A DNA stretch of 64,000 bases from Acidimicrobiales bacterium (GCA_044220495.1 JBGAQY010000007.1:11112-75111), one strand, 5' to 3'. Numbered from the stretch's first letter, positions 37,774-48,427 are shown. Numbers and translations: made by a program. Notes: generated from the letters alone by a model not told the origin.

Positions 37774-39033
37774 CTAAGCGGGTGGTCGAGTGTCGAGGGC
37801 GGCCTCAGCTGCCTGCAGTAACCGAGAAGTACATCCGCTCATCTCGATCAACGGCACGACGCTCGTAACTATGTTTTCGGCCAGTTCGGCAAACGCCCTG
37901 GCCACTGGGCCTTCGGGTTCTCCGATCGCTACCGGAACTCCCGCATCACCACCGGCAGAAACCGATGGGTCAAGAGGGATTTGAGCGACGAGAGGCACGC
38001 CTGTGTTGCGGGCGAGGCGTTCTCCACCGCCAGCACCGAAAAGCTTGTAGGTCTCTCCGTGCGTGCACTCGAACGTGCTCATGTTCTCAACGATTCCAGC
38101 GACGCGCAGATAACCGCGGCGTGCCATGTCGACTGCGCGCGCAGCGACTTGTTGTGCAGCAAGCGCAGGTGTTGTGACGACCAACAGGTCAGCGCGCGGC
38201 ATCATGCGCGCAAGACCCATCTGCACATCGCCGGTGCCGGGCGGCATGTCGATGAGCAAGTAGTCCATCTCGCCCCATTGAACGTCTTCGAGAAAGTGTT
38301 GCAGCGCGCGATTGAGCATCAGGCCGCGCAGCATGATGGCTTCGTCGGCACCGGAGCCTTCAATCAAGCCCATCGACACGAGCTTTAGCGCGCCGGCGCC
38401 AATCGGCTTGATGACCGGATTGATCTTGCCTTTGTCGGCAATGAGTCGTTCGTCGACGCCAAGCAGATGGGGGATTGAGAAGCCCGCGATGTCCGCGTCG
38501 AGCAGACCCACTGTTAACCCGCGGGCTGCTAACGCAACGGCGAGGTTGGCCGTAACCGAACTCTTGCCTACGCCACCTTTACCCGACGCGATCGCGATCA
38601 CGCGCGTGTTTGGCGGAACCTGTGTCACGGGTGCTGATTCGCGCGCCTTCCAACGAGCGCGCGCCATCAACGCCGACCGTTCGTCGGGGCTCATTGAACC
38701 CATCTCGATCTTCACTTCCGTGACGCCTGACAATGATCCGACGCGGGTCGTGATGTCGTTGCGAAGCTGTGTGCGCAACGGGCAGCCAGCAATAGTGAGG
38801 GCAAACGTGATCTCGACAAGTCCGTCACTGCTGAGGGTGATGCCTCGCACCATCCCAAGGTCGACAACGTTGTCGCCGAGCTCGGGGTCGATAACCCCGC
38901 GCAGGGCCGACCGAATGCCCTCGATGTCGAGTGGAATACCTGCAGAAGCCACGATTGTTGAATCGTAATGGCGCCTGGCTTGTTCCCGACAGGGGGCCAT
39001 TTCGACGGGCTCTCGCATATCGAGTGTCGCCAA
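37774..39033 (-). CDS. mrp: Mrp/NBP35 (ApbC) Fe-S carrier ATPase with an N-terminal DUF59 domain
   Basis: VIDPELGDNVVDLGMV, GCPL, SGKGGVGKS, DMPPGTGD and ENMS motifs; the true start may be about 100 nt downstream. Confidence 0.93.
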   Translation of the reverse strand: MATLDMREPVEMAPCREQARRHYDSTIVASAGIPLDIEGIRSALRGVIDPELGDNVVDLGMVRGITLSSDGLVEITFALTIAGCPLRTQLRNDITTRVGSLSGVTEVKIEMGSMSPDERSALMARARWKARESAPVTQVPPNTRVIAIASGKGGVGKSSVTANLAVALAARGLTVGLLDADIAGFSIPHLLGVDERLIADKGKINPVIKPIGAGALKLVSMGLIEGSGADEAIMLRGLMLNRALQHFLEDVQWGEMDYLLIDMPPGTGDVQMGLARMMPRADLLVVTTPALAAQQVAARAVDMARRGYLRVAGIVENMSTFECTHGETYKLFGAGGGERLARNTGVPLVAQIPLDPSVSAGGDAGVPVAIGEPEGPVARAFAELAENIVTSVVPLIEMSGCTSRLLQAAEAALDTRPPA

Positions 39034-39697: not shown

Positions 39698-39880
39698 TTG
39701 GTGATCGCTCCCCCAACCTATTGATCGCTAATAACTGTCTTCACCCCACGTATTAGCGATTAAAGGAAGCGGCAGGCTACCCGAGTTCAGCCGGCTATGC
39801 ATGGTAATTCGTGGCGATCGATTTTTGCGTCGACGAGTGTGTCGTTACCTGTGTTGTGGGCTGACGTAATCTCTGCGTCC

Positions 39881-40225
39881 ATGGCAGCACCCATTGGCCC
39901 TTACACCCCGGCTTATCGTGCCGGCGATTTTCTTTTTTGCTCCGGACAGATTGGTTTGAGTGGCGACGACCTCGTCGACGGGTTTGATGCGCAGGTCAAA
40001 CAGGCGCTCATCAACCTTGAAACGTTGCTCCGAGAAAACGATGCAACGATGAGCGATGTCGTTAAGGCGACGGTTTTTCTGACTGACATCGAGCATTTTG
40101 CGCCGATGAACGATCTTTACTGCGCAGCTTTTGGTGATCACCGGCCAGCGCGCTCAACGGTTGTGGTCGTTGCTCTACCGAAAGGTGCGCTGTTCGAGGT
40201 CGAGGCGATTGCTCATGTCTCGTAA
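39881..40225 (+). CDS. RidA/YjgF family enamine-imine deaminase
   Basis: IGPYTPA, SGQIG, MNDLY, PARSTV and EVEAIA motifs. Confidence 0.93.
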   Translation: MAAPIGPYTPAYRAGDFLFCSGQIGLSGDDLVDGFDAQVKQALINLETLLRENDATMSDVVKATVFLTDIEHFAPMNDLYCAAFGDHRPARSTVVVVALPKGALFEVEAIAHVS

Positions 40226-40683: not shown

Positions 40684-41370
40684 TTAGCTTTCGTCGCTGG
40701 AGTGCCAGCGTGGTCTGCCGAAGATGTAACCGACAGAGCGCACGGTTTGAATCAACTGGGCATGCTCTTCTCCAAGCTTTGCTCGCAACCGACGCACGTG
40801 AACATCAACAGTGCGCGCTCCGCCGTAGTACTCGTAACCCCACACCTGGCGCAGTAGTTCTTCACGACTAAACGTGCGACCAGGGTTGGTCGCAAAATGT
40901 TTGAGCAGTTCGTACTCCATGTACGTCATGTCGAGCGGACGATCAGCAACCGCAGCTTGATAAGTCGCGAGGTTGAGCACCAGAGTTCCGTACTCGACGA
41001 GTTCGGGGCGACTTCCGCCGGTTGCGCGCCACATCATCTGCTTCACTCGAGCCTCAAACTCGTACGCGCGCATCGGCGAGATAACAAAGTCGTCGTAAAC
41101 ATCACGCATGACTTCGAGACTTGCTGCCTTCTCGGTCGGCACGACAAGCAGCAATGGTGTTTGTCGATCGCGTTCACGCATCGCGCGGCAGTACTCGATT
41201 GCGCTTTCAAAGTCGGGGCCGATGACGATGGCGGCTGTCCACCCGGCCTCGGGTGCGAGTCGGTCGCTTGTTTCGAGCGACGCAGCAGCCTTCCAATTGA
41301 CCCCCACCGACGACAGTGCGTCGACGACTTCAGTGGGAACCGATTCGGCAAAGACGACTACCTGTGCCAT
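40684..41370 (-). CDS. glnR: GlnR-like OmpR-family regulator with an atypical receiver
   Basis: VWGYEYYGGARTVDVHVRRLRAKLGEEHAQLIQTVRSVGY matches the GlnR winged helix; lies next to two glnA genes. Confidence 0.8.
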   Translation of the reverse strand: MAQVVVFAESVPTEVVDALSSVGVNWKAAASLETSDRLAPEAGWTAAIVIGPDFESAIEYCRAMRERDRQTPLLLVVPTEKAASLEVMRDVYDDFVISPMRAYEFEARVKQMMWRATGGSRPELVEYGTLVLNLATYQAAVADRPLDMTYMEYELLKHFATNPGRTFSREELLRQVWGYEYYGGARTVDVHVRRLRAKLGEEHAQLIQTVRSVGYIFGRPRWHSSDES

Positions 41371-41379
41371 GTGAAGTCC

Positions 41380-42708
41380 TTAAAGCCTTGGTAGGTAACG
41401 GTTGATTTCGAACTGACTGACTTCCGCTTCGTAGGCTCGCCATTCAGCGCGCTTGTTGCGGATGAACCACTCGAAAACGTGCTCGCCGAGAACTTCAGAC
41501 ATGAGCTTCGAGTTTTCGATCTCATCGATCGCTGTCGCCAATGACCCCGGCAACGTCGTGATGCCTTTTGCAAGCAAATCTTGTGTGGTGAAGTCGTAAA
41601 GGTTCTCAGTTGTCTCGGCCGAGATCTCGTAACCCTGCTCGATGCCGTCAAGACCTGCCGACAAGATCGCTGCAAACGCAAGATAGGGGTTAGTTGCGGG
41701 ATCAGGCGCGCGGTATTCGATGCGTGTCGACTCTGCACTCTTTGCGTGCGGCACATTGACGATCGCCGAGCCATTGTTGCGTGCCCACGCAACGTAAATC
41801 GGCGCCTCATATCCGACGACAAGTCGCTTATACGAATTGACCCACTGATTGGTAACAGCAGACATTTCGCGAGCATGACGAAGAATGCCGGCAATAAATT
41901 GCTTTGCAACGGTTGACAATCCGTTTGGATCGTTGGCGTCGTAGAACGCATTCGTTTCGCCTCTGTAGAGCGAAAAGTGCGTGTGCATTCCCGAACCCTG
42001 CACTCCCGAAAGCGGCTTCGGCATGAACGTTGCGTGCACGCCTGCTTCGTTGGCGAATTCTTTGACGACTAGCCGCATCGTCATCAAAGTGTCGGCCATC
42101 GTTAGTGCGTCAGTGTGCCGCAGATCGATTTCGTGCTGACTGGGCGAGTCTTCGTGTTGGTTGTACTCAACGGGGATGCCCATGTCTTCCAGAGCAAGCA
42201 CTGTTCGTTTGCGAATTGCGCCGCCCTTGCCTGACACCTCGAGATCAAAGTACGACCCCTGATCGAGCGTTTGGGGTGCGCCGGTCGGTTGGTTGTCGGC
42301 GAAATAGAAGAACTCAACTTCAGGTGCAGCAAAGAACGAATATCCGCTGTCTTGCGCGCGCTGCAATGCACGGCGAAGCACGTAGCGGGGGTCGCCTTCA
42401 AACGGTGTGCCGTCGAGGCGTGTGATGTCGCAGAACATGCGGGCGACGGGCTTGTCGACTTCTTTCCATGGCAGAATCTGAAAAGTTTCAGGGTCGGGTT
42501 TGGCGAGCATGTCGCTTTCTTGAATGCGACTAAAACCCTCAATGGCCGAGCCGTCAAAGCTCATGCCTTCCTCGAGAGCGTTCTCGAGTTCTGCAGCAGT
42601 AATGCTGAAAGCCTTCGATGTACCCAACACATCTGTAAACCAGAGTTGGATGAATCGAACACCTCGCTCTTCGACCGTTCTAAGTACGTAGTCCTGGGGG
42701 CGCTCCAT
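41380..42708 (-). CDS. glnA2: Glutamine synthetase family protein, actinobacterial GlnA2 type
   Basis: DYVLRTVEERGVRFIQLWFTDVLG, FDGSAIEGF and MPKP...GSGMHTH motifs. Confidence 0.88.
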   Translation of the reverse strand: MERPQDYVLRTVEERGVRFIQLWFTDVLGTSKAFSITAAELENALEEGMSFDGSAIEGFSRIQESDMLAKPDPETFQILPWKEVDKPVARMFCDITRLDGTPFEGDPRYVLRRALQRAQDSGYSFFAAPEVEFFYFADNQPTGAPQTLDQGSYFDLEVSGKGGAIRKRTVLALEDMGIPVEYNQHEDSPSQHEIDLRHTDALTMADTLMTMRLVVKEFANEAGVHATFMPKPLSGVQGSGMHTHFSLYRGETNAFYDANDPNGLSTVAKQFIAGILRHAREMSAVTNQWVNSYKRLVVGYEAPIYVAWARNNGSAIVNVPHAKSAESTRIEYRAPDPATNPYLAFAAILSAGLDGIEQGYEISAETTENLYDFTTQDLLAKGITTLPGSLATAIDEIENSKLMSEVLGEHVFEWFIRNKRAEWRAYEAEVSQFEINRYLPRL

Positions 42709-42861
42709 GGAAAAAGGTTAGTTGCGGTTTTCAATATTTATTGATCGGCCCTCCTCTTGGCCTGCCCTTTTACCTAGAGTTAATAAAACGAGTTGGCTAT
42801 GGCGTCCTGCGCGAGAGTGTGCGGGTCGACTCTGTGAGCCGGCAAAGCCTTAGGAGGGTTA

Positions 42862-44286
42862 GTGGACGAGTACAGCGCTGAGGGAGTTCTCAGCATGGTG
42901 TCCGGCGAGGGCGCTGTGATGGTCGATCTTCGTTTTTGCGACTTACCGGGAGTCATGCAGCACTTCTCGGTGCCAGCCCACCAATTGACCGAAGAGTCAT
43001 TCACTCTCGGTTTCGGTTTCGACGGATCTTCAATTCGTGGATATCAAGACATTCACGAATCTGATCTCATCTTGGTTCCAGACCCAAAGACAGCAGTGAT
43101 GGATCCATTCCGTGAGCACGCCACCTTGAGCATGCACTGTTGGGTGAAAGATCCGACAACGGGTGAGCTTTACAGTCGTGATCCGCGCAACGTTGCGAAG
43201 AAGGCCGAAGAATATGTGCGCAGTACGGGTTTGGCTGACACTGCCTATTTTGGTCCCGAGGTTGAGTTCTTCATCTTCGACGACGTTCGCTTCGGCCAGA
43301 ACAATCATTCGGCTTCTTACTACCTCGACTCGGTAGAGGGCACGTGGAACAGCGACAAAGAAGAAGGGCCGAATCTCGGCCACAAACCGCGTGATCGCGA
43401 AGGCTATTTTCCGCTGCCGCCGATGGATATGTTTCAAGACCTCCGTACTGAGATGGTCATCAAGCTCGAAGAGTTAGGCATCGATGTAGAGCTGCAGCGC
43501 CATGAAGTCGCGACGGCTGGTCAAGCTGAGATCGACATGCGTTACGACACGCTGCTGCGTATGGCCGACAAGGTCATGCTCTACAAGTACGTAATCAAGA
43601 ACGTTGCTTTTCAGGCGGGCAAGACCGCCACGTTCATGCCAAAGCCGTTGTTTGAAGACAATGGTTCAGGCATGCACGTGCATCAATCGCTGTGGAGCGG
43701 AGATGAGCCGCTGTTCCACGGCGAGACTGGTTACGCCAACCTTTCTGACACGGGCCGTTGGTACATCGGTGGGCTCATCAAGCACGGCCGTTCGTTGATG
43801 GCTTTCTGCGCGCCGAGCACAAACTCCTACAAGCGTTTGGTTCCCGGTTATGAGACGCCCGTAAACCTCGTTTACTCGCAACGCAACCGGTCAGCGGCCG
43901 TGCGTGTCCCACCGGACGTCGAAGGTGCTTCGGGTAAACGCATCGAATTTCGTTCTCCTGACGCGTCCTCAAATCCATACCTGGCCTTTGCAGCTTTGGT
44001 GATGGCCGGGCTCGACGGTGTTGCCAACCGCATCGAGCCGCCCGCTCCCGTTGACGATGACATCTTCAAGATGAGTGCCGCTGATCAAGCAAAAATTTCT
44101 CAGGTGCCGAGTTCGCTCGAAGAAGCTCTCTGGCATCTCGAGCAAGACAACGCATACCTCAAGGCGGGCGGGGTTTTCACTGACGACTTGATCGAAAAGT
44201 GGATCGAAATGAAGCGGAAGAACGACGTGGATCCGCTTCGACAGCGTCCGCACCCCTGGGAGTTCATGCTTTACTACGACATCTAG
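42862..44286 (+). CDS. glnA: Type I glutamine synthetase (GSI-beta)
   Basis: FDGSSIRG, HESD, GYFP, DNGSGMH, SYKRLVPGYE, NRSA and RPHPWEF motifs. Confidence 0.95.
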   Translation: MDEYSAEGVLSMVSGEGAVMVDLRFCDLPGVMQHFSVPAHQLTEESFTLGFGFDGSSIRGYQDIHESDLILVPDPKTAVMDPFREHATLSMHCWVKDPTTGELYSRDPRNVAKKAEEYVRSTGLADTAYFGPEVEFFIFDDVRFGQNNHSASYYLDSVEGTWNSDKEEGPNLGHKPRDREGYFPLPPMDMFQDLRTEMVIKLEELGIDVELQRHEVATAGQAEIDMRYDTLLRMADKVMLYKYVIKNVAFQAGKTATFMPKPLFEDNGSGMHVHQSLWSGDEPLFHGETGYANLSDTGRWYIGGLIKHGRSLMAFCAPSTNSYKRLVPGYETPVNLVYSQRNRSAAVRVPPDVEGASGKRIEFRSPDASSNPYLAFAALVMAGLDGVANRIEPPAPVDDDIFKMSAADQAKISQVPSSLEEALWHLEQDNAYLKAGGVFTDDLIEKWIEMKRKNDVDPLRQRPHPWEFMLYYDI

Positions 44287-44347
44287 AAAACGCGAGTTTG
44301 AGTTTTACTCCTGCTGCTTTCAATCGTTCTGGCGGGGGTGCCCGACC

Positions 44348-44380
44348 AAAAGCGAGGCTCTTTGTGAGCCTCGCTTTTTT
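44348..44380. terminator. Bidirectional intrinsic terminator
   Basis: aaaagcgaggctc-tttgt-gagcctcgctttttt between the convergent glnA and EEP genes. Confidence 0.85.
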
Positions 44381-44382
44381 CG

Positions 44383-45375
44383 TTACTGAGTGTCGACGAT
44401 CGCGAGGTCGACAAGCACCGCTCGGTGATCGCTTCCTGCTGCCTTACCTTCGCTGATGCTGGTTGGTTGCAGATCTCGAGTGACAACCACGTGGTCGAGT
44501 CGTATGTATCCGCCGAAACGTTCTCCGCCAAAGAACCCGACCGGCCATGTGCGCGCGTAACCGCGTCCGCGGTCGACGTGAGCATCTTTGAATCCTGCGT
44601 CCAGTAGGTCTCGGTAGGGCTTATGTGATGAGGTTGCGTTGAAGTCTCCTGCAGCAACTGCTGTCGACCCCGCTCGCTTCAGTTCGTCTTTGATCAAGGC
44701 AATGTCGCCTTGCCATTGCCATGGTTCTCCGGCGACGGGAGCCTGTGTATGCACGTTGATGAGAGTGACGCGTTGCCCGTCTTTCGTTACTACCGCTCGC
44801 ATCAACGGAAAGCCCGGGCTCGACAGAAGACTTTTGTTGCTCAGTGGATACTTCGAGAAGATGCCGAGACCCTTGACGCCGTTTGGCTCGACGTACTGAT
44901 CGGTGTACGAGTCAAGAGCTCCGCTCTCACGAAGTGGAACGAGTACCTGCCACGAGAGCTCCTGCAAGAACACGACGTCGGCATCGGCGACAGAGATGCT
45001 CTGAGCGAGGGCCGTGATCTCGCGATTGTCGAACATCACGTTGTGCGTGAGAAGTGTCAAGTGCGGCGCGCTCTTCACTTCAGACGGCAGGGCAGAAGCA
45101 GACCGCCAATCGGGTACTACCCAAGCCAAGTGACACACGATCAAAAGTGCGCTGACGATTGCCAAAGCCCGCGATCGCCACGCGATCGCTACGGCAAACC
45201 CCAGATACGAGATGAGTAACAGAAATGGAAAGATCGTCTCGAACGAAATTACGAGTCGGTAATTCTCGAAGCCCGCAAGCCGTGCAATTGCGAGCAGGCC
45301 AACGGGAAGGGTGCAGATCAGAAGGCCATTGATCACAGCGGTTCGCATCACCGAGGCAAAGGTCTTGGTGGTCAC
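44383..45375 (-). CDS. Membrane-anchored endonuclease/exonuclease/phosphatase family protein
   Basis: N-terminal TM helices; HNV, LQE, GDFNA, LDH and SDH motifs. Confidence 0.92.
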   Translation of the reverse strand: MTTKTFASVMRTAVINGLLICTLPVGLLAIARLAGFENYRLVISFETIFPFLLLISYLGFAVAIAWRSRALAIVSALLIVCHLAWVVPDWRSASALPSEVKSAPHLTLLTHNVMFDNREITALAQSISVADADVVFLQELSWQVLVPLRESGALDSYTDQYVEPNGVKGLGIFSKYPLSNKSLLSSPGFPLMRAVVTKDGQRVTLINVHTQAPVAGEPWQWQGDIALIKDELKRAGSTAVAAGDFNATSSHKPYRDLLDAGFKDAHVDRGRGYARTWPVGFFGGERFGGYIRLDHVVVTRDLQPTSISEGKAAGSDHRAVLVDLAIVDTQ

Positions 45376-45457
45376 GTCGCCCAGCGTGGCAGATTTCGCG
45401 CCTCACAATGAAGGGACGACCGACGCGGGCGCTTCGCAGTAGGCATACGCTGAAGCA

Positions 45458-47203
45458 ATGCCGTCGATCAGGGTTGCGCTCTGTCAGCTCAACACAGTTG
45501 TTGGTGACATGCAGGGCAACGTGAGCCGAATACTCGAAGCTTTGTCGCGTGCCGCCGAGTCGGGTAGCGACATCGCTGTGTTTCCCGAGTTGGCGATCAC
45601 GGGATATCCCCCTGAAGATCTCCTGCTAAAGCCGCACTTCGTGCAAGACAACCTCGACGCAATGATGCAGGTTGCGCACGCGACGACCGACTGCGTTGCA
45701 ATTTTCGGTTTTGTTGATCGCCAGCAAGACCTTTACAACGCGGCTGCAATTTGCCATCGCGGCGAGGTCGTCAGTCGTCATCACAAAAGAGTGTTGCCAA
45801 ATTACGGCGTCTTTGACGAAGCGCGTTACTTCGCTCCGGGCGAGCGGGCGTCGAAGCTTTATGGAATTTCTGGCGTCAAAGTTGGCGTATCGATCTGCGA
45901 AGACGCGTGGCACCCAGACGGTCCCATCGCCGAGCAAGCTGCCGGTGGTGCCGAGATCATGATCAATCTCAATGCGTCGCCTTATTACGCAGGCAAGCTC
46001 GCAATCAGAACGCATCTCTTGGGCACGCGCGCTGCTGACGCATCGATCCCGATCGTTTACGTCAACCAAGTTGGTGGTCAAGACGAATTGGTGTTCGACG
46101 GCGCCTCGTTCGTGTTTGATGCCGACGGACGCGTCGTCGCTGCTGCCGGCCAGTTCACCGAGTCTGTAACGATCGTCGATGTCGATGTACGTCCGAGCTT
46201 TCGTAAGCGATTGCTCGATCCTCGGGGGCGCAGCAAGGCCGACATGCTGCCAATCGTTGCCGTGAAAGGTGACGTGTCGCCGTTGCGCGACGAAGTGAAA
46301 TCCGCATCGCCTCGCGTTGCACCGCTGCATCCAACCGCCGAGATCTACAACGCGCTTGTGCTTGGTACCGCCGACTATGTGCGTAAAAACGGATTCACCG
46401 ATGTTGTGCTTGGGCTTTCTGGTGGCATCGACTCTTCGCTCGTTGCTTGTGTCGCTGTCGACGCGCTCGGCGCCGATCACGTTCACGGTGTCGCACTTCC
46501 GTCGCGATACTCGTCGGCTGCTTCAGAGGTCGACGCGCAGATGTTGGCTGAGAATCTCGGCATCGACTTCCGCATCATTCCCATCGAGCCGGGTCATGTT
46601 GCCTTTCACCACATGCTCAAAGAGTCGTGCGATGGTGATGTCACTGGCCTGACCGACGAGAACCTTCAGAGTCGTTTGCGCGGCGTGACGTTGATGGCGT
46701 TGTCAAACGAGTTCGGTTGGCTGCTCCTCACTACTGGCAACAAGAGTGAGGTTGCCGTTGGTTACTCCACCCTTTATGGAGACTCGGCTGGTGGCTTTGC
46801 TGTCATCAAAGACGTTCTCAAGACTCGCGTATATGAGCTCTGCCGTTGGCGTAATCGCGAAGCTATTGCGAACGGGCTCGACTCGATCATTCCTGAGAGC
46901 GTTTTGATGAAGGTGCCGTCTGCCGAGTTGCGTCCTGATCAGCGCGACGACCAGAGCTTGCCGCCTTATGAAGTTCTCGATCCGATCCTCCAGGCGTACA
47001 TCGAAGACGATCGCAGCATCGACGAGATAGTGACTCTTGGGTTCGAACCCGAAGTCGTTCAGTCGGTTGTACGCCTCGTTGATCTCGCTGAGTACAAACG
47101 GCGACAGACGCCCATCGGCGTGAATGTCACTCCAAAAGCGTTTGGAAAAGACCGTCGCATGCCCATAACTAATGGATACGTAGAGATCTACAAAGAGTCG
47201 TGA
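45458..47203 (+). CDS. nadE: Glutamine-dependent NAD+ synthetase
   Basis: Nitrilase domain (FPEL, ICED) plus GLSGGIDS, ENLQSRLRG and GNKSE motifs. Confidence 0.96.
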   Translation: MPSIRVALCQLNTVVGDMQGNVSRILEALSRAAESGSDIAVFPELAITGYPPEDLLLKPHFVQDNLDAMMQVAHATTDCVAIFGFVDRQQDLYNAAAICHRGEVVSRHHKRVLPNYGVFDEARYFAPGERASKLYGISGVKVGVSICEDAWHPDGPIAEQAAGGAEIMINLNASPYYAGKLAIRTHLLGTRAADASIPIVYVNQVGGQDELVFDGASFVFDADGRVVAAAGQFTESVTIVDVDVRPSFRKRLLDPRGRSKADMLPIVAVKGDVSPLRDEVKSASPRVAPLHPTAEIYNALVLGTADYVRKNGFTDVVLGLSGGIDSSLVACVAVDALGADHVHGVALPSRYSSAASEVDAQMLAENLGIDFRIIPIEPGHVAFHHMLKESCDGDVTGLTDENLQSRLRGVTLMALSNEFGWLLLTTGNKSEVAVGYSTLYGDSAGGFAVIKDVLKTRVYELCRWRNREAIANGLDSIIPESVLMKVPSAELRPDQRDDQSLPPYEVLDPILQAYIEDDRSIDEIVTLGFEPEVVQSVVRLVDLAEYKRRQTPIGVNVTPKAFGKDRRMPITNGYVEIYKES

Positions 47204-47485
47204 GCTTGGGTCGTTCAGCGTTAATTCAGCAACGGCGACGTCGTCATGCAGAAAAAGTGCTGGTCGCGGAAGAATTGCAAACTTGCCGGTGTTGAAACAA
47301 CCAGTTCAACGGTGAACCCTAAACGTGGTCGCGTGAGTATAATTTCTCACTCCGGTCTAGCCGGGGCTCCCCTGACCGGTACAATAGGGACTTCGTCGCT
47401 TCGGTTTCCAGCTTTTTCGGCAGATTTTGTGCCGTGTGTTTTTGGGAACGAGAAGAGAGCGTCGCACTAGAAGGGCTTTACTGAT

Positions 47486-48427
47486 TTGGCCAAAGAGCGT
47501 ATAGAGCGAGATGAAGAAGACCTTGTCCGTCTCTACCTCACCGACATTGGGCAGTACCCACTGCTCACCAAGGACGACGAGGTTCGCCTCGCCCAAGCCA
47601 TCGAAGCCGGCAACGAAGCTCGTGTCGCGTTCGAAGCGACGGCCAAGGCTGACCTAACTGCCGCCAAAAAGCGTGAGCTGCGCAAGCTCATGCAAGCCGG
47701 TGCCGATGCTCAGCGCACATTCGTTCAGTCGAACCTTCGACTTGTTGTTTCGATTGCGAAGAAGTACCAGGCTTCTGGTCTTCCGCTTCTTGATCTGATT
47801 CAAGAGGGCAACCTCGGTCTTATGCACGCCGTCGAAAAGTTCGATTGGCGTAAGGGCTTCAAGTTTTCGACCTACGCAACTTGGTGGATTCGCCAAGCAA
47901 TTACTCGCGGTATCGCCAACACTGGCCGCACTATTCGTCTGCCAGTACACGCCGGCGACACGCTTGCTCGGTTGCAGAAAGCGCGTGCGCGTCTTGAGCT
48001 CAAACTCGGTCGTCCAGCAACGCTTACCGAGCTTGCTGCCGAAGTCGAGATGGAAGAGTCAAAGGTCACCGAAGCTCTGCGTTTCGCAGCTGAACCGCTT
48101 TCACTTTCCGAACCACTGCGTGAAGATGGCGATGCCGAACTGGGCGACGTCGTTGAAGATCGTTCCGCCGAGTCTCCATTCGAAGTCGCAGCGACTTCAC
48201 TCTTGCCCGAAGAGATCACGCGCCTGTTGGCGCCTCTCGACGAGCGCGAGCGTGAGATCCTGCGTCTGCGTTTCGGTCTCGACCGCGGCGAACCCCGCAC
48301 TCTCGAAGAGGTTGGCGAATACTTCAACCTCACTCGTGAGCGCATCCGTCAGATCGAAGCCCGCGCGATGTCGAAGTTGCGTCACCCGAGCTCCGATACT
48401 GGCGCCCGCGACCTCCTCACCGTCTAA
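47486..48427 (+). CDS. Sigma-70 family factor, group-2-like (no region 1.1)
   Basis: VRLYLTDIG, NLRLVVSIAKKY, DLIQEGNLGL, KFSTYATWWIRQ and TLEEVGEYFNLTRERIRQIE motifs. Confidence 0.93.
   Translation: MAKERIERDEEDLVRLYLTDIGQYPLLTKDDEVRLAQAIEAGNEARVAFEATAKADLTAAKKRELRKLMQAGADAQRTFVQSNLRLVVSIAKKYQASGLPLLDLIQEGNLGLMHAVEKFDWRKGFKFSTYATWWIRQAITRGIANTGRTIRLPVHAGDTLARLQKARARLELKLGRPATLTELAAEVEMEESKVTEALRFAAEPLSLSEPLREDGDAELGDVVEDRSAESPFEVAATSLLPEEITRLLAPLDEREREILRLRFGLDRGEPRTLEEVGEYFNLTRERIRQIEARAMSKLRHPSSDTGARDLLTV

What the first reader, a model, noticed from the sequence alone, without database searches (positions are those of the whole stretch)
44041..44085. GSI-beta has Phe at the adenylylation-site Tyr, and no glnE is in the cluster
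CCC GTT GAC GAT GAC ATC TTC AAG ATG encodes PVDDDIFKM where GSI-beta enzymes have PVDKDLYEL or NLYDL, whose Tyr is adenylylated by GlnE. The glnA-glnA2-nadE neighbourhood of other actinobacteria usually includes glnE, which is not seen here. Either this GS escapes covalent control or it is a specialised paralogue; RHEVA also replaces the usual HHEV.
Basis: partly seen in the sequence, partly recalled or inferred. Interest (0 to 1): 0.55.

Follow-up and report, generated by a model that had tools for sequence, protein, structure and literature searches.

The report
Glutamine synthetase that lost adenylylation control
This Acidimicrobiales genome keeps an intact type I-beta glutamine synthetase but has deleted the enzyme that switches it off (GlnE), and the tyrosine that GlnE modifies has become phenylalanine, a known kind of regulatory loss (Helicobacter pylori) that turns out to recur in Actinomycetota.

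Summary
Window 42862-44286(+) encodes a 474-aa GSI-beta with the beta-specific insertion and intact catalytic motifs. Its adenylylation loop reads PVDDDIFKM; Phe402 (TTC, 44065-44067) aligns with M. tuberculosis Tyr406.

glnE is absent from the cluster and from the 96.8%-complete genome. In relatives glnE lies next to nadE; here that slot is an 82-nt gap on an unbroken contig. PII, GlnD and GOGAT were also not found. The genome has three AmtB, a GDH, a near-universal GSI-alpha-like GlnA2, a GlnII and a GlnR-like regulator.

Across Acidimicrobiales, all 123 GSI-beta sequences read from glnE-positive genomes have Tyr in a near-invariant DLYDLPPEE motif. In glnE-negative genomes, 10 of 25 have Phe and nearly all the rest have a degraded motif. 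A phylum sample agrees: 29/29 Tyr with glnE, 4/11 Phe without.

The window's enzyme is also the fastest-evolving of 147 in the tree. It has 14 private changes at conserved sites, including the unique H213R.

Best reading: an active GS that cannot be adenylylated, controlled by transcription and feedback inhibition. The main rival is a redundant or retuned paralogue. H. pylori GS is the precedent, so this is a new member of a known kind, of moderate interest.

The parts
42862..44286 (+). glnA, GSI-beta type glutamine synthetase (474 aa, GTG start, AGGAGG 5 nt upstream)
   Evidence: TIGR00653 641 bits. Gln-synt_N and Gln-synt_C domains. 26-aa beta-specific insertion relative to P0002. Best PDB matches are Synechocystis GS 3NG0 (E 1e-184) and mycobacterial GlnA1.
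44047..44088 (+). Relic of the adenylylation loop, PVDDDIFKMSAADQ. Phe402 (TTC, 44065-44067) stands where GlnE-modified Tyr stands in relatives.
   Evidence: Order consensus is PVDKDLYDLPPEEL.
43498..43500 (+). Arg213 codon in 'QRHEV', two residues before the metal-ligand Glu. It is His in every other sequence examined.
41380..42708 (-). glnA2-like GSI-alpha-type glutamine synthetase (442 aa), divergent from glnA. It is the GS found in nearly all genomes of the order.
   Evidence: TIGR00653 474 bits. It lacks the beta insertion. Orthologues found in 56/61 relatives, adjacent to GSI-beta or GlnII.
40684..41370 (-). GlnR-like orphan OmpR-family regulator (228 aa) immediately downstream of glnA2. 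Candidate transcriptional controller of the GS genes.
   Evidence: Trans_reg_C 91.8 bits and a weak GlnR_1st hit of 19.9 bits. Best PDB match is 8HIH chain O, E 1.2e-37 over residues 6-220. 8HIH is the M. tuberculosis GlnR transcription activation complex (PMC10235972).
44383..45375 (-). Exo_endo_phos family protein (330 aa) between glnA and nadE. Its homologue flanks glnE in G002.
   Evidence: PF03372 89.8 bits. 37% identical to L156 9268-10410.
45376..45457 (.). 82-nt intergenic gap at the position where relatives carry glnE (between the Exo_endo_phos gene and nadE). This is the deletion junction.
   Evidence: G002 order is Exo_endo_phos(-)/glnE(-, 901 aa)/nadE(+). G071 order is nadE/glnE/x/glnA. 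ORF coordinates.
45458..47203 (+). nadE, glutamine-dependent NAD+ synthase (581 aa). A glutamine consumer and the conserved neighbour of glnE in relatives.
   Evidence: NF010588 720 bits. 64% and 63% identical to G002 and G071 nadE.

Best explanation
The gene encodes a complete and probably active GSI-beta glutamine synthetase that can no longer be switched off by adenylylation. The lineage deleted glnE from its conserved position beside nadE. With no adenylyltransferase, selection on the acceptor hydroxyl and on the loop that flanks it (YDLPPEE; presumably read by GlnE, which is inferred) lapsed. The Tyr became Phe, so the aromatic ring is kept but the hydroxyl is lost, and the flanking residues drifted.

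The genome also lacks PII, GlnD and GOGAT. Ammonium is therefore most likely taken up by three AmtB transporters without GlnK gating and fixed into glutamate by GDH. Glutamine would be made by three isoenzymes: this GSI-beta, the order-wide GlnA2-type enzyme, and a GlnII.

Control of this GS must then be transcriptional and by classical cumulative feedback inhibition. A GlnR-like regulator sits next to glnA2.

Shown here: the gene, the Phe, the clean absence of glnE, PII, GlnD and GOGAT from the assembly, and the Phe/glnE association. Inferred: catalytic activity, the mode of regulation, and the order of events.
For: - Intact ORF with conserved catalytic motifs: PEVEF, EGYFP, HEV, NGSGMHVH, NSYKRLVPGYE, NRSAAVRVP, KRIEFRSPD.
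- The beta-specific insertion is present.
- No GlnE, PII or GlnD domains in a 96.8%-complete genome. tblastn with G002 GlnE finds nothing.
- Synteny shows glnE missing from an 82-nt gap on a continuous contig.
- Order survey: Tyr in 123/123 GSI-beta sequences from glnE-positive genomes (122/122 without the unpublished G043). In glnE-negative genomes, 10/25 have Phe and 14 of the 15 Tyr sequences have a degraded motif.
- Phylum sample: 29/29 Tyr with glnE. Without glnE, 4/11 have Phe, covering all three members of family f88 and the one f140 member.
- Only Tyr or Phe ever occupies the site.
- Precedent: H. pylori GS has NLF407KLT in place of NLYDLP and is described as not regulated by adenylation (PMC6076278).
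- A GlnR-like regulator lies adjacent.
Against: - No biochemical data exist; activity is inferred from conserved motifs only.
- The enzyme evolves about four times faster than its sister (end branch 0.46 against 0.11). It carries 14 private substitutions at columns at least 97% conserved, several next to catalytic residues: K179R, H213R, T319S, A332T, P356A, A358G. This could mean relaxed or altered function.
- Two other GS genes make it potentially dispensable. The same-family genome G001 has no GSI-beta at all.
- The genome is a 109-contig draft, so absence of glnE, PII and GOGAT is 'not found in the assembly'.
- No GlnR box or promoter could be identified upstream.
Confidence: 0.75

Rival explanations
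1. It is a redundant or specialised paralogue. With GlnA2-type GS and GlnII also present and GOGAT gone, this GSI-beta would be under relaxed constraint and on the way to loss, as in G001. Alternatively it has been retuned in kinetics, effector sensitivity or substrate, and the Phe is one of many changes.
For: - Three GS genes in the genome.
- GlnA2-type is near-universal in the order: 56/61 genomes.
- The acceleration is gene-specific. GS identity to outgroup G071 is 71.5% for G000 against 82.8% for G002, while nadE is 62.6% for both.
- 14 private substitutions at conserved columns, against at most 5 in any other sequence and a median of 0.
- The nearest protein among 5.8 billion is only 73% identical.
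- G001, in the same family, lacks GSI-beta.
- GSI-beta from glnE-negative genomes has longer paths in general: median 0.38-0.45 against 0.22.
Against: - The frame is open and every catalytic motif is intact.
- 12 of the 14 private changes are conservative (F/Y, M/L, K/R, L/I, A/G, T/S and similar).
- The RBS and start codon are intact.
- At the 90% conservation threshold it is no more deviant than other deep clades: 23 against 22.
- Other glnE-negative Phe lineages keep GOGAT and have no GlnII, so redundancy is not needed to explain the Phe.
Confidence: 0.2
2. glnE exists but lies in an unassembled part of the genome, and the enzyme is still covalently regulated at another residue or by another AMPylase.
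For: The assembly has 109 contigs and 96.8% completeness. Seven glnE-negative phylum genomes with canonical Tyr motifs are probably such assembly misses.
Against: - The conserved glnE slot is contiguous and empty.
- No fragment is detectable by HMM or tblastn.
- The flanking YDLPPEE motif, presumably the GlnE-recognition element, is degraded, unlike in the probable assembly misses.
- PII and GlnD are also missing.
Confidence: 0.03
3. The TTC codon is a sequencing or assembly error for TAC.
For: Tyr and Phe codons differ by one base.
Against: - Eight of the twelve loop residues after the shared 'PV' (DDDIFKMSAADQ) differ from the consensus, not only the Tyr.
- The same Tyr-to-Phe state recurs in many independent assemblies from glnE-negative genomes.
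Confidence: 0.01

Closest known systems
Helicobacter pylori GlnA (PDB 5ZLP; Garner 1998; Joo 2018, PMC6076278)
   Same: It is a GSI-beta with the beta insertion, and the adenylylation Tyr is replaced by Phe. The local sequence is even similar: NLF-K-L-T against DIF-K-M-S. PMC10349072 states that H. pylori GS lacks adenylylation. Absence of glnE, PII and GOGAT in H. pylori is from my memory and was not verified here.
   Different: It belongs to a different phylum, and only about 420 bits separate the two (5zli). H. pylori has a single essential GS; this genome has three. Joo et al. call the substitution 'unique among GS I-beta'. The survey here shows it is recurrent in Actinomycetota.
Mycobacterium / Streptomyces / Corynebacterium GlnA1 with GlnE
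   Same: Same subfamily, 606 bits to mycobacterial GS. Same glnA / glnA2 / (glnE) neighbourhood logic (PMC2667176). A GlnR-type regulator is present.
   Different: Those enzymes have Tyr406 and an adenylyltransferase, and glnE is essential in M. tuberculosis (cited in PMC2667176). Here both the Tyr and GlnE are gone.
Synechocystis PCC 6803 GS (PDB 3NG0)
   Same: It is the best PDB match (617 bits). It is a GSI-beta that is not adenylylated (PMC13312541). Its loop, DVDIYDLSPEEL, resembles the degraded Tyr-type loops of glnE-negative Acidimicrobiales.
   Different: It keeps the Tyr and is controlled by the inactivating factors GifA and GifB (PMC13312541). No such factors were looked for here.
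Plasmodium GS I (PMC10349072)
   Same: A type I GS lacking the acceptor Tyr, with no adenylylation, in an organism without glnE, glnD and PII.
   Different: It is a eukaryotic parasite enzyme with large inserts and is not classifiable as alpha or beta.

Membership tests
GSI-beta glutamine synthetase | Gln-synt_N plus Gln-synt_C architecture, scoring above the type I GlnA equivalog cut-off | tested here: met
   TIGR00653 641 bits against 429. PF03951 and PF00120 present.
GSI-beta glutamine synthetase | An insertion of about 25 aa that is absent from GSI-alpha | tested here: met
   26-residue gap in P0002 opposite P0001 residues about 143-168. The feature is defined in PMC10349072.
GSI-beta glutamine synthetase | Conserved Tyr in the adenylylation loop (NLYDLPPEE) | tested here: not met
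   Phe402. The loop reads DDDIFKMSAADQ.
GSI-beta glutamine synthetase | Partner adenylyltransferase GlnE encoded in the genome | tested here: not met
   PF03710 gives no hit. tblastn of G002 GlnE gives no hit. The conserved slot is empty. Caveat: draft genome, 96.8% complete.
GSI-beta glutamine synthetase | Metal-ligand and substrate-binding residues (E-x-E, E of HEV, H-x-H, R of SYKR, flap E, NRS, R-x-E-x-R) | tested here: met
   All lie in columns at least 97% conserved and are unchanged in P0001.
GSI-beta glutamine synthetase | Dodecameric enzyme with glutamine synthetase activity | not testable with these tools
   Requires expression and assay.
Non-adenylylatable GSI-beta (H. pylori type) | Tyr replaced by Phe in the loop, together with no glnE in the genome | tested here: met
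   Precedent in PMC6076278.
Non-adenylylatable GSI-beta (H. pylori type) | Demonstrated absence of AMP modification in vivo | not testable with these tools
   Needs an anti-AMP-Tyr blot or mass spectrometry.
GSI-alpha glutamine synthetase | No beta insertion | tested here: not met
   P0001 has the insertion. The neighbouring P0002 is the alpha-like enzyme.

The most novel reading that the evidence does not exclude
Loss of GlnE may set off a repeatable trajectory in GSI-beta. First the YDLPPEE loop decays. Then Tyr becomes Phe, in up to three or more lineages in Acidimicrobiales, in at least two further actinobacterial families, and in H. pylori. Then the whole enzyme speeds up, and finally it is replaced by GlnII or lost.

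In this genome, which has also lost GOGAT and PII, the unique substitutions next to the active site (H213R, A332T, K179R, P356A/A358G) would be compensatory changes. They would damp or re-gate catalysis in place of covalent control, which would explain how a lineage tolerates loss of a gene that is essential in M. tuberculosis.
Probability: 0.15. Interest if true: 0.6.

Novelty: new member of a known kind. Interest (0 to 1): 0.4.

Why it matters
Adenylylation by GlnE is the textbook defining feature of GSI-beta, and glnE is essential in M. tuberculosis. This survey shows that Actinomycetota have lost glnE repeatedly while keeping GSI-beta, and that the acceptor Tyr then turns to Phe. Phe was never seen in 152 sequences from glnE-positive genomes and was seen in 14 of 36 from glnE-negative ones.

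This corrects the view that the H. pylori Phe is unique. It gives a sequence rule for annotation: Phe or a degraded YDLPPEE motif predicts no covalent control. It points to YDLPPEE as the element under GlnE-dependent selection.

The window's genome is the extreme case, with no GlnE, PII, GlnD or GOGAT, three GS isoenzymes, and the fastest-evolving GSI-beta. That makes it a good subject for asking how nitrogen assimilation is kept safe without the classical cascade.

Tried and rejected
- **Sequencing error.** Rejected, because the whole loop differs, not one base.
- **glnE pseudogene remnant.** None found by HMM or tblastn, and only 82 nt lie at the slot.
- **Independent origins of Phe.** The best GS tree needs three Tyr/Phe changes, and starred branches force three. 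The AU test, however, does not reject a tree with all ten Phe sequences as one clade (p = 0.27). From the sequences alone the number of origins inside the order is therefore 1 to 3. The independent-pairs sign test has too few pairs (5) to reach significance.
- **Does GOGAT loss explain glnE loss in general?** No. 24 other glnE-negative genomes with GSI-beta keep GOGAT; only G000 and G001 lack it.
- **Does GlnII presence explain glnE loss?** No. The other glnE-negative GSI-beta genomes among the 60 relatives (G009, G020, G037, G049, G051) lack GlnII.
- **RNA elements.** The Rfam scan of 41000-47500 found none, so no glnA RNA or riboswitch.
- **Promoter and GlnR box.** The promoter scan found nothing, and by eye I could not find a convincing GlnR box in 42709-42861.
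- **Earlier notes.** The search of earlier findings returned nothing for this genome.
- **Literature gaps.** Garner 1998 (PMC108133) is not held, so absence of GOGAT, PII and glnE in H. pylori is from memory only.
- **dN/dS.** Not attempted, because synonymous sites are expected to be saturated at about 70% amino-acid identity.
- **Structure prediction.** Not run, because a monomer model would not show the inter-subunit active site.

Full report
**1. What is there**

The finding lies in an ORF at 42862-44286(+) that encodes 474 aa. It scores 641 bits on the type I GlnA equivalog TIGR00653 (cut-off 429) and has the Gln-synt_N and Gln-synt_C domains. Aligned with the neighbouring GS (P0002), it carries a 26-residue insertion that P0002 lacks. 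That is the GSI-beta hallmark (definition in PMC10349072).

Phe is residue 402 (TTC, 44065-44067). In the HMMER alignment with mycobacterial GS the offset after the insertion is +4, so Phe402 aligns with Tyr406 of 'DKDLYELPPEE'. That Tyr is the adenylylation site of M. tuberculosis GlnA1 (the site identity is established knowledge).

The 'RHEVA' remark is also correct. Arg213 replaces a His that is present in all 147 other Acidimicrobiales sequences and in all 119 database homologues examined.

All catalytic motifs sit in columns at least 97% conserved and are unchanged: PEVEF, EGYFP, HEV, NGSGMHVH, NSYKRLVPGYE, NRSAAVRVP, KRIEFRSPD.

**2. glnE is truly missing, and its slot is empty**

The Pfam GlnE domain has no hit in the window's genome (3.01 Mb, 109 contigs, 96.8% complete), although the control genomes ring. 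tblastn with the 901-aa GlnE of G002, a genome of the same family, finds nothing better than E=3.4.

Synteny shows where glnE should be:
- G002 has Exo_endo_phos(-) / glnE(-) / nadE(+).
- G071 has nadE / glnE / x / glnA.
- The window has the Exo_endo_phos gene (44383-45375, -) directly abutting nadE (45458, +), with 82 nt between them on a continuous contig.

In 14 of 17 relatives where glnA and glnE share a contig, they lie within 20 kb of each other. So this is a clean deletion, not an assembly gap.

**3. The wider nitrogen network**

Not found in the genome:
- PII (PF00543) and the GlnD/GlnE regulatory domain PF08335. PII is missing in all three genomes of the family.
- The GOGAT large subunit, by HMM or by tblastn with GltB of G071 and G002. 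It is present in 49 of 51 order genomes checked and is missing only in G000 and its relative G001.

Present in the genome:
- Three AmtB transporters and one GDH.
- A GlnA2-type GSI-alpha-like enzyme at 41380-42708(-). Its orthologue is found in 56/61 relatives, next to GSI-beta or GlnII.
- A GlnII on contig C34 (635 bits on NF041605).
- A 228-aa OmpR-family regulator at 40684-41370(-). Its best solved relative is GlnR of the M. tuberculosis GlnR transcription complex 8HIH (E 1.2e-37), far ahead of MtrA or PhoB.

**4. Comparative test of Tyr/Phe against glnE**

Database names place the protein in Acidimicrobiales. I searched 301 genomes of the order (at least 85% complete) for GlnE and for the GSI-beta orthologue. 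I rechecked the apparent glnE-negatives at a lax threshold; three were reclassified as positive. I then read 148 GSI-beta sequences.

| Genome class | Sequences read | Tyr | Phe | Motif |
|---|---|---|---|---|
| glnE-positive (order) | 123 | 123 | 0 | D(K/R)DLYDLPPEEL, near-invariant |
| glnE-negative (order) | 25 | 15 | 10 | degraded in 14 of the 15 Tyr cases |
| glnE-positive (phylum sample) | 29 | 29 | 0 | canonical |
| glnE-negative (phylum sample) | 11 | 7 | 4 | canonical in the 7 Tyr cases |

- The ten Phe sequences in the order come from families f1, f8, f19, f36, f60 and f74.
- Examples of degraded Tyr motifs are LYGLRPEE, IYALSSEE and LYALPAEE.
- No residue other than Tyr or Phe occurs at the site.
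- The phylum sample covered 251 Actinomycetota genomes. Its four Phe cases are all three members of small-genome family f88 (DIFEM...) and one f140 genome.
- Its seven Tyr cases without glnE keep the canonical motif. They are fragmented assemblies from families that normally have glnE, so they are probably assembly misses (inference).
- Among the 120 best database homologues, 50 carry Phe. Phe-type GSI-beta is therefore common in environmental Acidimicrobiales.

**5. How many origins**

I built a maximum-likelihood tree of 147 sequences with the loop columns removed. It places the window's enzyme as sister of G002, which is glnE-positive and has Tyr (SH-aLRT 98). The tree needs three Tyr/Phe changes and five glnE changes.

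The AU test does not reject a single Phe clade (p = 0.27). The count of origins inside the order is therefore 1 to 3 from these sequences alone.

Several other lines argue that the window's Phe arose on its own:
- taxonomy, since it shares a family with a Tyr/glnE-positive genome;
- the Exo_endo_phos/nadE synteny shared with G002;
- its three nearest database homologues (72-73% identity) being Tyr-type.

The f88 and f140 cases and H. pylori are clearly separate events.

**6. An unusually fast enzyme**

- The window's sequence has the longest terminal branch: 0.46, against a median of 0.051 and 0.11 for its sister.
- The acceleration is gene-specific. Against the outgroup G071, GS identity is 71.5% for G000 and 82.8% for G002, whereas nadE is 62.6% for both.
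- It has 14 private substitutions at columns at least 97% conserved; the next highest count is 5 and the median is 0. Twelve are conservative. Several flank catalytic residues: K179R, H213R, T319S, A332T, P356A, A358G, C365S.
- GSI-beta from glnE-negative genomes is faster in general. Path lengths from the MRCA of the 55-sequence clade have these medians: 0.22 for glnE-positive, 0.38 for glnE-negative with Tyr, 0.45 for glnE-negative with Phe. These lineages are not independent samples.
- The nearest protein in 5.8 billion is 73% identical.

**7. Interpretation**

The most economical reading is a regulatory loss. glnE was deleted, the acceptor hydroxyl and the flanking motif (presumably the GlnE-recognition element) became neutral, and the site settled on Phe because an aromatic ring is still needed there. 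The enzyme is intact and very likely active. Control must come from transcription (GlnR-like regulator) and feedback inhibition.

The extra acceleration and the unique active-site-adjacent changes leave room for a second reading, either relaxed constraint or retuning. That reading draws on the presence of two more GS isoenzymes, the loss of GOGAT, and the complete loss of GSI-beta in the related G001.

**8. Comparison with what is known**

[quoted passage not shown] Plasmodium GS I and cyanobacterial GS are other non-adenylylated type I enzymes.

No paper in the searchable library links Acidimicrobiia GS with adenylylation. The window's gene is thus a new member of a known kind. The order- and phylum-wide association, and the finding that the H. 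pylori state is recurrent, are the new elements.

**9. Use of unpublished genomes**

- The presence/absence tallies include unpublished genomes G043, G067, G137, G162, G204 and G240.
- The tallies include G307, G324, G353, G372, G392, G422, G471, G513 and G524.
- Only G043's GS sequence was read. It has Tyr and the genome is glnE-positive. Without it the count is 122/122, and it was left out of the tree.
- No conclusion depends on these genomes.

Noticed in passing
whole genome G000 (window = C5:11112-75111); amtB at C34:1016-2218, C5:89454-90647, C7:52234-53490: There are three AmtB ammonium transporters but no PII (GlnB/GlnK) and no GlnD anywhere in the 96.8%-complete genome. PII is also not found in the other two genomes of the family, nor in 6 other families among the 60 relatives.
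   Followed up: partly
whole genome G000; GDH at C15:67167-67865: No glutamate synthase (GOGAT) was found by HMM or tblastn, although 49 of 51 order genomes have it. Only G000 and same-family G001 lack it. A GDH is present, so glutamate is probably made by GDH and there is no GS-GOGAT cycle.
   Followed up: partly
G000:C34:26697-27692 (-), locus L003:1186-2226: A third glutamine synthetase, GlnII (GSII type), scores 635 bits on NF041605. Across 60 relatives GlnII and GSI-beta are largely complementary. Both can occupy the slot divergent from glnA2; a few genomes have glnA2-glnII-glnA in a row (G059, G004).
   Followed up: partly
window 40684-41370 (-): A GlnR-like orphan OmpR-family regulator lies directly downstream of glnA2. 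It has no ordinary receiver-domain hit. Its best PDB relative is M. tuberculosis GlnR (8HIH).
   Followed up: partly
window 43498-43500: Arg213 stands in place of an otherwise invariant His, two residues before the metal-ligand Glu (QRHEV against QHHEV). It is unique among 267 GSI-beta sequences compared. The GlnA2-type neighbour has Gln at the same position.
   Followed up: partly
genomes G308, G339, G354 (family f88) and G534 (f140); loci L162-L164, L172: Other Actinomycetota families without glnE also have Phe at the site (LEHDIFEMT..., SRDMFEKD...). The f88 genomes are small, 1.3-1.8 Mb.
   Followed up: partly
genomes G016, G165, G177, G261, G262, G281: glnE was found but no GSI-beta orthologue at E<=1e-100. 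These are either assembly gaps or GlnE without its usual substrate.
   Followed up: no
window 37774-39033 (-), 39797-40225 (+), 47486-48427 (+): Neighbouring genes are an Mrp/NUBPL-type Fe-S P-loop NTPase, a RidA/L-PSP family protein and a group-1/2-like sigma-70 factor. They look ordinary.
   Followed up: no
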